Shown piece after piece: positions 18,101 to 21,100 of a DNA stretch of 57,499 nucleotides. This DNA is from Escherichia coli (GTDB lineage Bacteria > Pseudomonadota > Gammaproteobacteria > Enterobacterales > Enterobacteriaceae), in assembly GCF_003334315.1 (NCBI RefSeq), contig NZ_QOWR01000027.1. One strand, written 5' to 3'. A program made the position numbers. How positions within the stretch are numbered: the first letter of the stretch is position 1; each line of letters begins with the position of its first letter.

Positions 18101-21100
18101 TTCCCTGCGTTTCTATTATCGGTTTAAGGGTTATCACCGCATCAATAAACTGGTGCTGGCTTTCAAAGGTTGCTTCTACGTGTTTGAGCGGATGTGCCTG
18201 TTTTATTGCTTGTTGCAATACGGCGGGTAACGTTAAGAGTTCAGTGATTGCCCGTCCCTGACTTGCCGTCGCGTCAAGGCGCAAGACCCGCGCCGCCTGG
18301 GCATTAATAAATTGCAAATTACCCTGCTCGTCCCAGCTAATCACGCCATCATCCATACTTTCTAACAGGGCATTAAGTTGATTTAAATGACGGTTAGTTT
18401 CAGCGAGCAAACTGTCCGTCAGCAGTAAATTTCCGACCTCGCGGGCGATTGCCAACGTCAACGGCAAATCAGCTGCGGTAGTTTGCTCAATCGGACACGC
18501 CAGCGCTATTGTTCCCGTCAATCGGCCCTTGCTGTCAAACAACGGCGTTGCACAAAAGGCCCAGTTCCAGAGTGCCTGTTTGAAATGTTGATCGGCCATC
18601 GTTTTCACGGCCTGACCAGAGATAGCCGCTAACGATAGCGCACAAGTACCAATAATTCCCTCGGCGCAATACGTGCCGTCATTGAATCCCAGTGCACTTA
18701 GCTGCTGCAAGGTTTGCGGATCGCCATTACGGCTGAGAATGCAGGCGGTTTCATCGAGGATAAACAGCGCACACTCTCGCGGTGCCATATATTCCCAGGC
18801 ATCTTCCAGCGCAGCCTGCCCGAGCGTCAGCATCGCTTTCTTACGCCGATAAATAGAAGCAAATGTCACGCCCTGGGCCTGATGTGGTACGTTCCATGTC
18901 TCCCGTTTCATCAGCTTATTGCATCGCTCCCAGGAGGTTGCAATTAAGGGAGATATGCCCCGACCATCGTTGTTAAAAGCGCCACTCATATCCCGCATCC
19001 CTTATGACAAAAGGTGTTCCGGCTCGCAATTTTAAGTATTAATACACGTAAAAGTTTCAATATGGAACATTCATTAAAGCATATGTTTCACTATGAAACA
19101 TAATTTGGGCTAATTTTCTTTTCCCTTGCCTGATGCACAATGGATTCATCGGCAGTCAGTGGTCGCCGTGTCGTTGAACATCATCCATGCCCTACCGTAA
19201 TTGCTGGAGCAAAATAATGAAAAAATTGATCAATGATGTGCAAGACGTACTGGACGAACAACTGGCAGGACTGGCGAAAGCGCATCCATCGCTGACACTG
19301 CATCAGGATCCGGTGTATGTCACCCGAGCTGATGCCCCTGTTGCAGGAAAAGTCGCCCTGCTGTCGGGTGGCGGCAGCGGACACGAGCCGATGCACTGTG
19401 GTTATATCGGTCAGGGGATGCTTTCGGGGGCCTGTCCGGGCGAAATTTTCACCTCACCGACGCCCGATAAAATCTTTGAATGCGCCATGCAAGTTGATGG
19501 CGGCGAAGGTGTACTGTTGATTATCAAAAATTACACCGGCGATATTCTTAACTTTGAAACAGCGACCGAGTTACTGCACGATAGCGGCGTAAAAGTGACC
19601 ACTGTGGTCATTGATGACGACGTTGCGGTAAAAGACAGTCTTTATACTGCCGGGCGACGCGGCGTTGCCAACACCGTATTAATTGAAAAACTCGTAGGCG
19701 CAGCGGCGGAGCGTGGCGACTCACTGGACGCCTGTGCGGAACTGGGGCGTAAGCTGAATAATCAAGGCCACTCAATAGGTATCGCTCTCGGTGCCTGTAC
19801 CGTTCCTGCCGCGGGCAAACCTTCTTTTACCCTGGCGGATAATGAGATGGAGTTTGGCGTCGGCATTCATGGTGAGCCGGGTATTGACCGCCGCCCCTTC
19901 TCTTCCCTTGATCAAACCGTCGATGAAATGTTCGACACCCTGCTGGTAAATGGCTCATACCATCGCACTTTGCGTTTCTGGGATTATCAACAAGGCAGTT
20001 GGCAGGAAGAACAACAAACCAAACAACCGCTCCAGTCTGGCGATCGGGTGATTGCGCTGGTTAACAATCTTGGCGCAACTCCGCTTTCTGAGCTGTACGG
20101 CGTCTATAACCGCCTGACCACACGTTGCCAGCAAGCGGGATTGACTATCGAACGTAATTTAATTGGCGCGTACTGCACCTCACTGGATATGACCGGTTTC
20201 TCAATCACCTTACTGAAAGTTGATGACGAAACGCTGGCACTCTGGGACGCCCCGGTCCACACCCCGGCCCTTAACTGGGGTAAATAAGGAGAAAGCAATG
20301 TCACTGAGCAGAACTCAAATTGTTAACTGGCTCACTCGTTGTGGCGATATTTTCAGCACCGAGAGCGAGTATCTTACCGGACTGGATCGCGAAATTGGCG
20401 ATGCTGACCACGGGCTAAATATGAACCGAGGCTTTAGCAAAGTGGTGGAAAAACTCCCTGCTATCGCAGATAAAGATATCGGTTTCATTCTCAAGAATAC
20501 CGGTATGACGCTGCTTTCCAGCGTCGGTGGTGCCAGTGGTCCGCTGTTCGGTACCTTCTTTATCCGCGCCGCACAGGCGACCCAGGCACGGCAAAGCCTG
20601 ACACTGGAAGAGCTTTATCAGATGTTCCGCGATGGCGCGGACGGCGTAATCAGTCGCGGGAAAGCCGAACCTGGCGATAAAACCATGTGTGATGTGTGGG
20701 TGCCGGTGGTGGAATCGTTACGTCAGTCCAGCGAGCAAAATCTCTCTGTTCCGGTGGCGCTCGAAGCTGCCAGTAGCATCGCCGAATCCGCTGCACAAAG
20801 TACGATTACGATGCAAGCCCGCAAAGGCCGCGCCAGTTATCTCGGTGAACGCAGTATTGGTCACCAGGATCCCGGCGCGACCTCGGTGATGTTTATGATG
20901 CAAATGTTGGCGTTAGCCGCAAAAGAGTAAGGAATTGGTGATGGTAAACCTGGTCATAGTTTCACATAGCAGCCGACTGGGAGAAGGTGTCGGTGAATTA
21001 GCCCGTCAGATGTTAATGAGTGATAGTTGTAAAATCGCCATTGCCGCGGGAATTGACGATCCACAAAATCCCATTGGTACCGATGCCGTCAAAGTGATGG

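What the first reader, a model, noticed from the sequence alone, without database searches (positions are those of the whole stretch)
19000..19216. Perfect palindrome in the dhaR-dhaK divergent regulatory region
atgtttca-cta-tgaaacat (19083-19101) is a textbook dyad in the region where DhaR activates dhaKLM and autoregulates. It is a candidate operator for this unusual sigma70-dependent enhancer-binding-protein homolog.
Basis: partly seen in the sequence, partly recalled or inferred. Interest (0 to 1): 0.3.

Follow-up and report, generated by a model that had tools for sequence, protein, structure and literature searches.

The report
DhaR operator: two paired dyads
The palindrome is real and is very probably one of two adjacent binding sites for the regulator DhaR in the well-studied E. 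coli dhaR-dhaK control region, so it is an ordinary operator of a known system and not a new kind of element.

Summary
TATGTTTCA-cta-TGAAACATA lies at 19082-19102, with 9-nt perfect arms, in the 227-bp dhaR-dhaK spacer. The window is identical to E. coli K-12 MG1655 here. Such a dyad arises in about 0.7% of shuffles of the spacer.

It is not alone. An imperfect copy, aGTTTCA-ata-TGgAACA (19053-19069), lies 31 bp away centre to centre. In 17 dhaR-containing loci from Escherichia, Citrobacter, Klebsiella, Pantoea, Serratia, Rahnella, Pluralibacter, Shimwellia and others (DhaR identity down to 47%), the motif GTTYCA-WWW-TGRAAC occurs almost only as pairs spaced 31-32 bp (26 pairs, 1 unpaired site). 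The pairs lie upstream of dhaK, dhaD/gldA and dhaB. A weight matrix built without any Escherichia site ranks the two E. coli dyads first and second in the 57.5-kb window.

A -10-like hexamer starts 43-45 bp from the proximal dyad centre in 21 of 22 target-gene promoters. This places the perfect palindrome at about -56 and the imperfect dyad at about -87 of a sigma70-type dhaK promoter. The imperfect dyad would sit over the dhaR -35 region, which fits autorepression.

DhaR binding was not tested, and the primary paper (Bächler 2005) could not be read. Verdict: known system, low interest.

The parts
19082..19102 (.). Dyad 1: perfect palindrome TATGTTTCA-cta-TGAAACATA (conserved core GTTTCAcTATGAAAC 19085-19099, centre 19092 = MG1655 1250963). 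It is the dhaK-proximal DhaR box, predicted centre about -56 from the dhaK start of transcription.
   Evidence: Conserved in position in Escherichia and Citrobacter. Top hit in the window (26.0 bits) of a weight matrix built without Escherichia sites.
19053..19069 (.). Dyad 2: imperfect copy aGTTTCA-ata-TGgAACA (core 19054-19068, centre 19061 = MG1655 1250994), 31 bp from dyad 1. It is the dhaR-proximal DhaR box, predicted at about -87 of dhaK and about -39 of dhaR.
   Evidence: Second-best hit in the window (22.9 bits; the next is 12.2). It is better conserved than dyad 1 in the non-coli Escherichia and Citrobacter loci.
19112..19123 (+). Invariant T-rich block AATTTTCTTTTC at the position of the dhaK -35 region. 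It does not resemble TTGACA, so an activator would be needed.
   Evidence: Invariant in alignment A1. An equivalent T-tract lies at +20 to +31 from the proximal dyad centre in most dhaK, dhaD and dhaB promoters. Its role is inferred.
19136..19141 (+). Predicted dhaK -10 hexamer CACAAT, which implies a start of transcription at about 19148 (MG1655 about 1250907).
   Evidence: Invariant in Escherichia and Citrobacter. A hexamer with A at position 2 and T at position 6 starts at +43 to +45 from the proximal dyad centre in 21 of 22 promoters scored toward dhaK, dhaD/gldA, the Pantoea 423-aa gene or dhaB; the Shimwellia dhaB promoter has only a 3-of-6 match. One more was read by eye in L039. The consensus scan found no strong sigma70 promoter. 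No transcript data were available.
19148..19216 (+). Predicted dhaK 5' untranslated leader, with a block conserved between Escherichia and Citrobacter (about 19147-19180) and a CCCTAC motif (19190-19195).
   Evidence: No Rfam family matches. Function unknown.
19029..19034 (-). Candidate dhaR -10 hexamer TAAAAT (read on the minus strand), within the conserved AAAATTGCGAG. It would place dyad 2 over the dhaR -35 region.
   Evidence: Read from the sequence and alignment A1. There is no good -35 hexamer at 16-19 bp. This is a weak inference.
17070..18989 (-). dhaR, encoding a GAF-PAS-AAA+-HTH_8 regulator (639 aa) that lacks the GAFTGA sigma54-contact motif.
   Evidence: (Pfam PF01590, PF00989, PF00158, PF02954).
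19217..20287 (+). dhaK, the first gene of dhaKLM and the activated target.

Best explanation
The palindrome is the dhaK-proximal half of a two-part DhaR operator. Each 15-17 bp dyad (consensus GTTYCA-WWW-TGRAAC) would be bound by a DhaR dimer through its C-terminal HTH_8 domains. The two dyads are 31 bp apart centre to centre, about three helical turns, so both dimers lie on the same face of the DNA and can act together. Dyad 1 (19082-19102) sits at about -56 and dyad 2 (19053-19069) at about -87 from a sigma70-type dhaK promoter that has a recognisable -10 (CACAAT, 19136-19141) and no TTGACA-like -35. From there DhaR, switched on by DhaL-ADP and off by DhaK according to the literature, recruits or assists RNA polymerase. 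The same bound complex covers the -35 region of the divergent dhaR promoter through dyad 2, which would account for autorepression. Shown here: the dyads, their pairing, and their conservation in sequence, spacing and register with a -10-like hexamer. Inferred: that DhaR is the protein that binds, the transcription start points, and the mode of contact with polymerase.
For: (1) The dyad is unlikely by chance (P about 0.007). (2) A second copy lies 31 bp away. The pattern GTTYCANNNYGRAAC has exact matches in the 57.5-kb window only at these two places. (3) In 17 dhaR-containing loci (177 kb), a weight matrix finds 53 sites of at least 13 bits. 52 of them form 26 pairs spaced exactly 31 or 32 bp. 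This includes a locus whose DhaR is only 47% identical (L039). (4) The pairs follow the target operons and not the dhaR gene. In Serratia dhaR is convergent with gldA-dhaKLM and the pair lies upstream of gldA. In Klebsiella-type clusters separate pairs precede dhaK, dhaD and dhaB. (5) A matrix built from non-Escherichia sites alone ranks the two E. coli dyads first and second in the window (26.0 and 22.9 bits, next 12.2). (6) A -10-like hexamer starts at +43 to +45 from the proximal dyad centre in 21 of 22 target-gene promoters. (7) Unrelated sigma54-type activators from Desulfobacterota that share DhaR's recognition helix (R[TS]TLWRKMKQHG) carry the same dyad, at 18-22 bits, next to their genes in 3 of 19 loci. 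This links the dyad to that helix. (8) DhaR is the only regulator gene at the E. coli locus. The literature says it activates dhaKLM from a sigma70 promoter (PMC10084136; PMC6643234). That it represses its own gene is my recollection of Bächler 2005, not something read in a held paper. (9) The operator and promoter core 19040-19150 is at least 99% identical in 5318 of 5386 E. coli records.
Against: No binding experiment could be consulted or run. The primary paper is not held, and the only solved DhaR structures cover residues 1-318 without DNA. The transcription start points are predicted, not measured. The consensus promoter scan found nothing in the region, and the dhaR promoter assignment is weak, with no acceptable -35 at 16-19 bp. 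In some Citrobacter loci the distal arm of dyad 1 has decayed (2 mismatches), so a perfect palindrome is not required. An AppY ChIP-seq summit maps 6 bp from the dyad 1 centre, so another protein may also occupy this DNA.
Confidence: 0.85

Rival explanations
1. The perfect palindrome alone is the DhaR operator, bound by a single dimer, and the neighbouring imperfect dyad is irrelevant.
For: It is the only perfect dyad in the spacer and the best-scoring site in the window.
Against: Pairs with 31-32 bp spacing are found in all 17 dhaR loci: 26 pairs and only one unpaired site. In the non-coli Escherichia and Citrobacter loci dyad 2 is the better-conserved member.
Confidence: 0.07
2. The dyad is the target of a different transcription factor (AppY, NtrC, CRP, FNR or another), and DhaR binds elsewhere in the spacer.
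For: The AppY ChIP-seq summit at U00096.3 1250957 maps to window 19098. An NtrC genomic-SELEX peak is reported for the dhaK/dhaR spacer.
Against: The spacer has no exact AppY motif ATGSCWGM and no NtrC or TyrR box within 3 mismatches. The best CRP match has 3 mismatches and the best FNR match 2, and neither overlaps the dyads. The motif co-occurs with dhaR across genera and with dha target operons only. AppY is prophage-encoded in K-12, so it cannot explain conservation in Serratia or Pantoea.
Confidence: 0.05
3. It is a chance or structural palindrome (cruciform, hairpin or terminator) with no protein-binding role.
For: As single-stranded DNA it folds at -6.5 kcal/mol, z = -4.2 against shuffles.
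Against: No terminator-like site was found and no RNA family matches. It lies upstream of both predicted transcription starts. Conservation is of the half-site sequence, with a free spacer and a fixed distance to a second copy, which is the signature of a protein site and not of a stem.
Confidence: 0.02

Closest known systems
The DhaR-dhaKLM regulatory system of E. coli (Bächler et al. 2005, EMBO J 24:283; cited)
   Same: Same locus and same genes, and the sequence is identical to K-12 MG1655. The regulator acts on this spacer from a sigma70 promoter.
   Different: Nothing differs as far as I can tell. I could not read the paper to see whether the two dyads and the start points are already mapped there. 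From memory the intergenic fragment was shown to bind DhaR, but I cannot vouch for nucleotide-level mapping.
Upstream activating sequences of sigma54 enhancer-binding proteins, such as the NtrC sites at glnAp2 (my recollection: two dyads about 32 bp apart)
   Same: Tandem 15-17 bp dyads about three helical turns apart, read by a C-terminal HTH_8 domain of an AAA+ regulator. The same dyad sequence is used by true sigma54 activators that share the recognition helix.
   Different: There is no -24/-12 promoter. The dyads are close to the promoter (about -56 and -87) and in fixed register with a sigma70-like -10. The regulator lacks GAFTGA.
TyrR, the other E. coli AAA+ regulator family member that works at sigma70 promoters (grouped with DhaR in PMC8743547)
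   Same: An enhancer-binding-protein homologue acting at sigma70 promoters through palindromic boxes, with a strong and a weaker box side by side, and activation or repression depending on box position (general knowledge).
   Different: The box sequence differs. TGTAAA-N6-TTTACA has no match within 3 mismatches in the spacer. The spacer within the dyad is 3 bp, not 6.

Membership tests
DhaR operator (DhaR box) | Lies in the regulatory region of a gene known to be controlled by DhaR | tested here: met
   It lies in the dhaR-dhaK spacer, 125 bp upstream of the dhaK ATG. Control by DhaR is from the literature.
DhaR operator (DhaR box) | Conserved in orthologous promoters of genomes that encode DhaR | tested here: met
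   26 pairs in 17 dhaR loci down to 47% DhaR identity. Cross-validated weight-matrix scan.
DhaR operator (DhaR box) | Dyad symmetry fit for a dimeric helix-turn-helix protein | tested here: met
   The symmetrised matrix shows information concentrated at GTTYCA / TGRAAC, with a free W-rich 3-bp centre. DhaR carries HTH_8.
DhaR operator (DhaR box) | Direct binding by DhaR (gel shift, footprint or ChIP) | not testable with these tools
   The primary paper is not held. No DNA-bound structure exists.
Sigma54 enhancer (UAS of a bacterial enhancer-binding protein) | Serves a -24/-12 (TGGCAC-N5-TTGC) promoter | tested here: not met
   No match within 2 mismatches on either strand of the spacer. A sigma70-like -10 sits at a fixed offset instead.
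Sigma54 enhancer (UAS of a bacterial enhancer-binding protein) | The activator carries the GAFTGA sigma54-contact loop | tested here: not met
   The translation reads ...EEFIGGDRTDNENGRLSRLE... where GAFTGA would be. The literature agrees.
Sigma54 enhancer (UAS of a bacterial enhancer-binding protein) | Tandem dyads about three helical turns apart | tested here: met
   31 bp in E. coli and 31-32 bp in all 26 pairs.
TyrR box | Sequence TGTAAA-N6-TTTACA | tested here: not met
   No match within 3 mismatches.
Intrinsic terminator or structured RNA | G+C-rich stem followed by a T run, or a match to an RNA family | tested here: not met
   No terminator-like site. No Rfam match at E up to 1.

The most novel reading that the evidence does not exclude
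The nucleotide-level operator of DhaR may never have been defined. If so, this analysis would give the first description of a rigid DhaR promoter design: two GTTYCA-N3-TGRAAC dyads 31-32 bp apart, with the proximal one exactly 44±1 bp from a -10 hexamer and an invariant T-tract in place of a -35 element. It would also show that DhaR kept the DNA specificity of sigma54 activators sharing its recognition helix while moving its sites next to a sigma70 promoter. That would make the switch from sigma54 to sigma70 activation by an AAA+ regulator directly testable.
Probability: 0.3. Interest if true: 0.4.

Novelty: already known. Interest (0 to 1): 0.2.

Why it matters
DhaR is one of the few enhancer-binding-protein homologues that activate a sigma70 promoter, and it is controlled by the enzyme subunits it regulates. 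The exact operator layout (two dyads on one DNA face at about -56 and -87, with a T-tract in place of a -35) says where the protein must touch RNA polymerase. It also explains how one bound complex can activate dhaKLM and repress dhaR. The same motif pair marks dhaD, gldA and dhaB promoters in Klebsiella-type 1,3-propanediol producers, which is useful for engineering those strains. For the genome scan, this is a correct reading of an ordinary operator in a textbook locus, not a discovery.

Tried and rejected
- **Literature.** Bächler 2005 was requested by DOI, PMC id and PubMed id and is not held. Two PTS reviews are not held either. A full-text search for the dyad sequences and for 'DhaR binding' gave 0 papers. 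Searches on DhaR with dhaK returned 31 papers, and none of those opened gives a site. A search for promoter names returned only noise, and the first search was swamped by the surname Dhar.
- **Promoter and terminator scan.** It found nothing in 18900-19300. The promoter was inferred from cross-species register instead.
- **Alternative downstream promoter.** TTGAAC (19174) -16- CGTAAT was considered and rejected. It would start transcription inside the ribosome-binding site, and it is not conserved in Citrobacter.
- **TTGAAA as the dhaR -35.** TTGAAA within dyad 2 was rejected because the spacer to TAAAAT is 20 bp.
- **Other factor motifs.** CRP, FNR, NtrC, TyrR and sigma54 motifs were tested. 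None fits the dyads.
- **First DhaK tblastn.** It used a frame shifted by one base and was redone.
- **RefSeq annotation.** The MG1655 annotation was checked for binding-site features and has none here.
- **RNA.** The Rfam scan of the region was empty.

Full report
**What is there.** The window around the finding is E. coli. 18900-19300 is 100% identical to many chromosomes annotated dhaR and dhaK, and 18935-19275 has no mismatch to K-12 MG1655 1250780-1251120. dhaR runs leftward from 18989 and dhaK rightward from 19217, which leaves a 227-bp spacer. The reported palindrome is exactly where stated. In 5000 dinucleotide-preserving shuffles of the spacer, a perfect inverted repeat with arms of at least 9 nt and a loop of 0-6 occurred in 0.74% of shuffles; with arms of at least 8 nt it occurred in 3.1%.

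**A second copy.** The repeat finder also paired this dyad with 19054-19070. Read directly, 19053-19069 is aGTTTCA-ata-TGgAACA, the same dyad with two departures. Its centre (19061) is 31 bp from the centre of the perfect one (19092). The pattern GTTYCANNNYGRAAC has exact matches in the 57.5-kb window only at these two places.

**Related loci.**
- A scan of one genome per species with DhaR as query gave Escherichia species, three Citrobacter, Pantoea ananatis and a 47%-identical homologue labelled Martelella alba.
- A protein search gave further orthologues. I fetched their contigs: Klebsiella pneumoniae, two Serratia, Rahnella, [Enterobacter] lignolyticus, Pluralibacter, Shimwellia and an unnamed 61%-identical one.
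- In every one of these 17 loci the motif appears as a pair with centres 31 or 32 bp apart. A weight matrix with a threshold of 13 bits finds 53 sites in 177 kb, of which 52 form 26 pairs.
- The pairs follow the target operons, not the regulator gene. In Serratia, where dhaR is convergent with gldA-dhaKLM, the pair precedes gldA. In Klebsiella-type clusters there are separate pairs before dhaK, before dhaD and in the dhaB/dhaT spacer.
- The 47% homologue again has a perfect 8-nt-arm palindrome, GCGTTTCA-ttt-TGAAACGC, and a partner 32 bp away upstream of dhaK.
- The symmetrised matrix from 44 non-redundant sites gives the consensus GTTYCA-WWW-TGRAAC, with nearly 2 bits at G, T, T and the mirrored A, A, C.
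- A matrix built without any Escherichia site ranks the two E. coli dyads first and second in the whole window (26.0 and 22.9 bits; the next hit is 12.2).

**Register with a promoter.**
- I anchored 20 dhaK, dhaD/gldA and related promoters on the centre of the dyad nearest the gene, and scored these together with the dhaB and dhaT spacers. The layout is common: a T-rich tract at about +20 to +31, then a hexamer with A at position 2 and T at position 6 starting at +43 to +45. The hexamers are CACAAT, CAGAAT, GAGAAT, GAAAAT and AAGAAT for dhaK, TACAGT, TAAAGT, TAGAGT and TATAGT for dhaD/gldA, and TAAAGT for dhaB.
- This held in 21 of the 22 promoters scored toward a target gene. The Shimwellia dhaB promoter has only a 3-of-6 match there. 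The 47% homologue has TATGCT at +44 (read).
- In E. coli the hexamer is CACAAT at 19136-19141. It is invariant across Escherichia and Citrobacter, as is the T-tract AATTTTCTTTTC at 19112-19123.
- Taking the hexamer as -12 to -7, the dhaK start of transcription is predicted near 19148. That places the perfect palindrome at about -56 and the imperfect dyad at about -87.
- The -35 position holds no TTGACA-like sequence, as expected for an activator-dependent promoter. The generic promoter scan accordingly found nothing.
- No sigma54 -24/-12 element is present within 2 mismatches, and the DhaR translation lacks GAFTGA. Both agree with the literature statement that DhaR drives a sigma70 promoter and lacks the sigma54-binding motif (PMC10084136 citing Bächler 2005).

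**The dhaR side.**
- Toward dhaR the layout is different. No hexamer lies at +44.
- A conserved AAAATTGCGAG holds a candidate -10, TAAAAT, at 19034 to 19029 on the minus strand. It would put dyad 2 at about -39, over the dhaR -35 region.
- The geometric argument is independent of that assignment. The edge of dyad 2 is only 64 bp from the dhaR ATG, so any promoter with a normal leader must overlap or abut it.
- This fits repression of dhaR by the same complex that activates dhaK. I recall autorepression from Bächler 2005; none of the held papers I read states it, and in one RNA-seq study dhaR rose together with dhaKLM on dihydroxyacetone (PMC6643234). The dhaR start point is a weak inference.

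**Which protein reads the dyad.**
- DhaR is the only regulator gene at the E. coli locus, and the motif tracks dhaR across varied gene orders.
- An unplanned control adds to this. The genome scan had also fished 19 loci of unrelated sigma54-type activators, mostly Desulfobacterota metagenome bins, because they share the peptide WRKMKQHG of the recognition helix.
- In 122 kb of these loci there is no pair at 29-34 bp. However, three loci carry single dyads of 18-22 bits (TGTTCCGAAATGAAACA, TGTTTCAATTCGAAACA and similar) just downstream of the activator gene. In two of them the dyads are about 80 bp apart and upstream of sequences that look like -24/-12 promoters.
- The same helix goes with the same dyad, which supports recognition by the HTH_8 domain. 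It also suggests that DhaR kept an ancestral specificity while its sites moved next to a sigma70 promoter. This last point is inference.

**Rivals.**
- A single-dyad operator is unlikely, because pairs are universal and dyad 1 has partly decayed in some Citrobacter while dyad 2 is kept.
- Another factor is possible as an additional occupant. The AppY ChIP-seq summit for 'dhaK-dhaR' (U00096.3 1250957; PMC10057817) maps to window 19098, 6 bp from the centre of dyad 1, and an NtrC genomic-SELEX peak is listed for this spacer (PMC8743547).
- Against another factor as the main reader: the AppY motif ATGSCWGM is absent from the spacer, and no NtrC or TyrR box occurs within 3 mismatches. The best CRP and FNR matches, at 3 and 2 mismatches, lie away from the dyads. 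AppY is prophage-encoded, so it cannot explain conservation in other genera.
- A purely structural role is not supported. The DNA hairpin is modest at -6.5 kcal/mol, there is no terminator and no Rfam match. What is conserved is the half-site sequence and the distance to a partner, not complementarity as such.

**What is not shown.**
- DhaR binding to these bases was not tested.
- The paper that would settle it is not in the held library, no held paper gives the site, and the solved structures cover only residues 1-318 without DNA.
- RefSeq annotates nothing in the spacer.
- From memory, Bächler et al. showed binding of DhaR to the intergenic fragment and mapped the starts, and curated databases list DhaR sites here. 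I cannot confirm the coordinates.

**Verdict.** The system is a textbook one in K-12 and the element is an ordinary operator, so novelty is 'already known' and interest is low. The comparative result adds detail to a known system. That detail is the 31-32 bp pairing, the fixed 44±1 bp register to a -10, the T-tract at the -35 position, and the extension to dhaD, gldA and dhaB promoters.

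Noticed in passing
L016 3007-3110 and 3171-3188; L019 3906-4008 and 4070-4087; L012 4729-4751: Sigma54-type activators from Desulfobacterota metagenome bins share DhaR's recognition helix (R[TS]TLWRKMKQHG). 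They carry DhaR-box-like dyads (18-22 bits) just downstream of their genes. In L016 and L019 the dyads are about 80 bp apart and upstream of -24/-12-like promoters. The DNA specificity seems older than DhaR's switch to sigma70.
   Followed up: partly
window 19098 (MG1655 1250957): The published AppY ChIP-seq summit for 'dhaK-dhaR' (4.9-fold, PMC10057817) falls 6 bp from the centre of the perfect palindrome. The spacer has no exact AppY motif ATGSCWGM; the nearest one-mismatch match is TTGCCTGA at 19126.
   Followed up: partly
window 19147-19216: The predicted dhaK leader is unusually conserved. ATCGGCAG..GAG.GGTCGCCGTG.CGTTGAACA is nearly invariant between Escherichia and Citrobacter. A CCCTAC motif (19190-19195) recurs in the leaders of most orthologues and next to the gldA ribosome-binding site in Serratia. 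No Rfam family matches.
   Followed up: partly
window 19112-19123: An invariant T-tract (AATTTTCTTTTC) occupies the -35 position of the predicted dhaK promoter. It has counterparts in most DhaR-dependent promoters of other genera. It may be a bend or a contact surface and not a -35 element.
   Followed up: partly
window 19012-19020: GGTGTTCCG resembles a single DhaR half-site near the predicted dhaR start of transcription. It is conserved in Escherichia but not in Citrobacter.
   Followed up: no
L031 9658-9703; L036 10663-10709; L037 10787-10832: In Klebsiella-type clusters the dyad pair in the dhaB/dhaT spacer is laid out toward dhaB (T-tract plus TAAAGT at +43). A held paper states that DhaR activates dhaT and represses dhaB (PMC5890353). 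The layout and the literature do not obviously agree.
   Followed up: no
L033 4938-4952: Rahnella has the only unpaired high-scoring site, about 56 bp upstream of its dhaR start codon. It may be a separate autoregulatory site.
   Followed up: no
window spacer 18990-19216 and the start of dhaK: An NtrC genomic-SELEX peak is reported for the dhaK/dhaR spacer (PMC8743547, older coordinate 1250156). The spacer has no NtrC box within 3 mismatches.
   Followed up: partly
window 52908-52943, 13391-13416, 10941-10968, 45790-45815: The window holds other long perfect inverted repeats: 15-nt arms at 52908-52943, a 26-bp perfect palindrome AAAATCCACGCAATTGCGTGGATTTT at 13391-13416, and 11-nt arms at the other two. 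In total 10 centres have arms of at least 9 nt, against 1.9 expected.
   Followed up: no
window 18990-18998: The dhaR open reading frame has an in-frame ATG three codons upstream of the annotated start (MRDMSGAF...). The annotated start at 18989 was used here.
   Followed up: no
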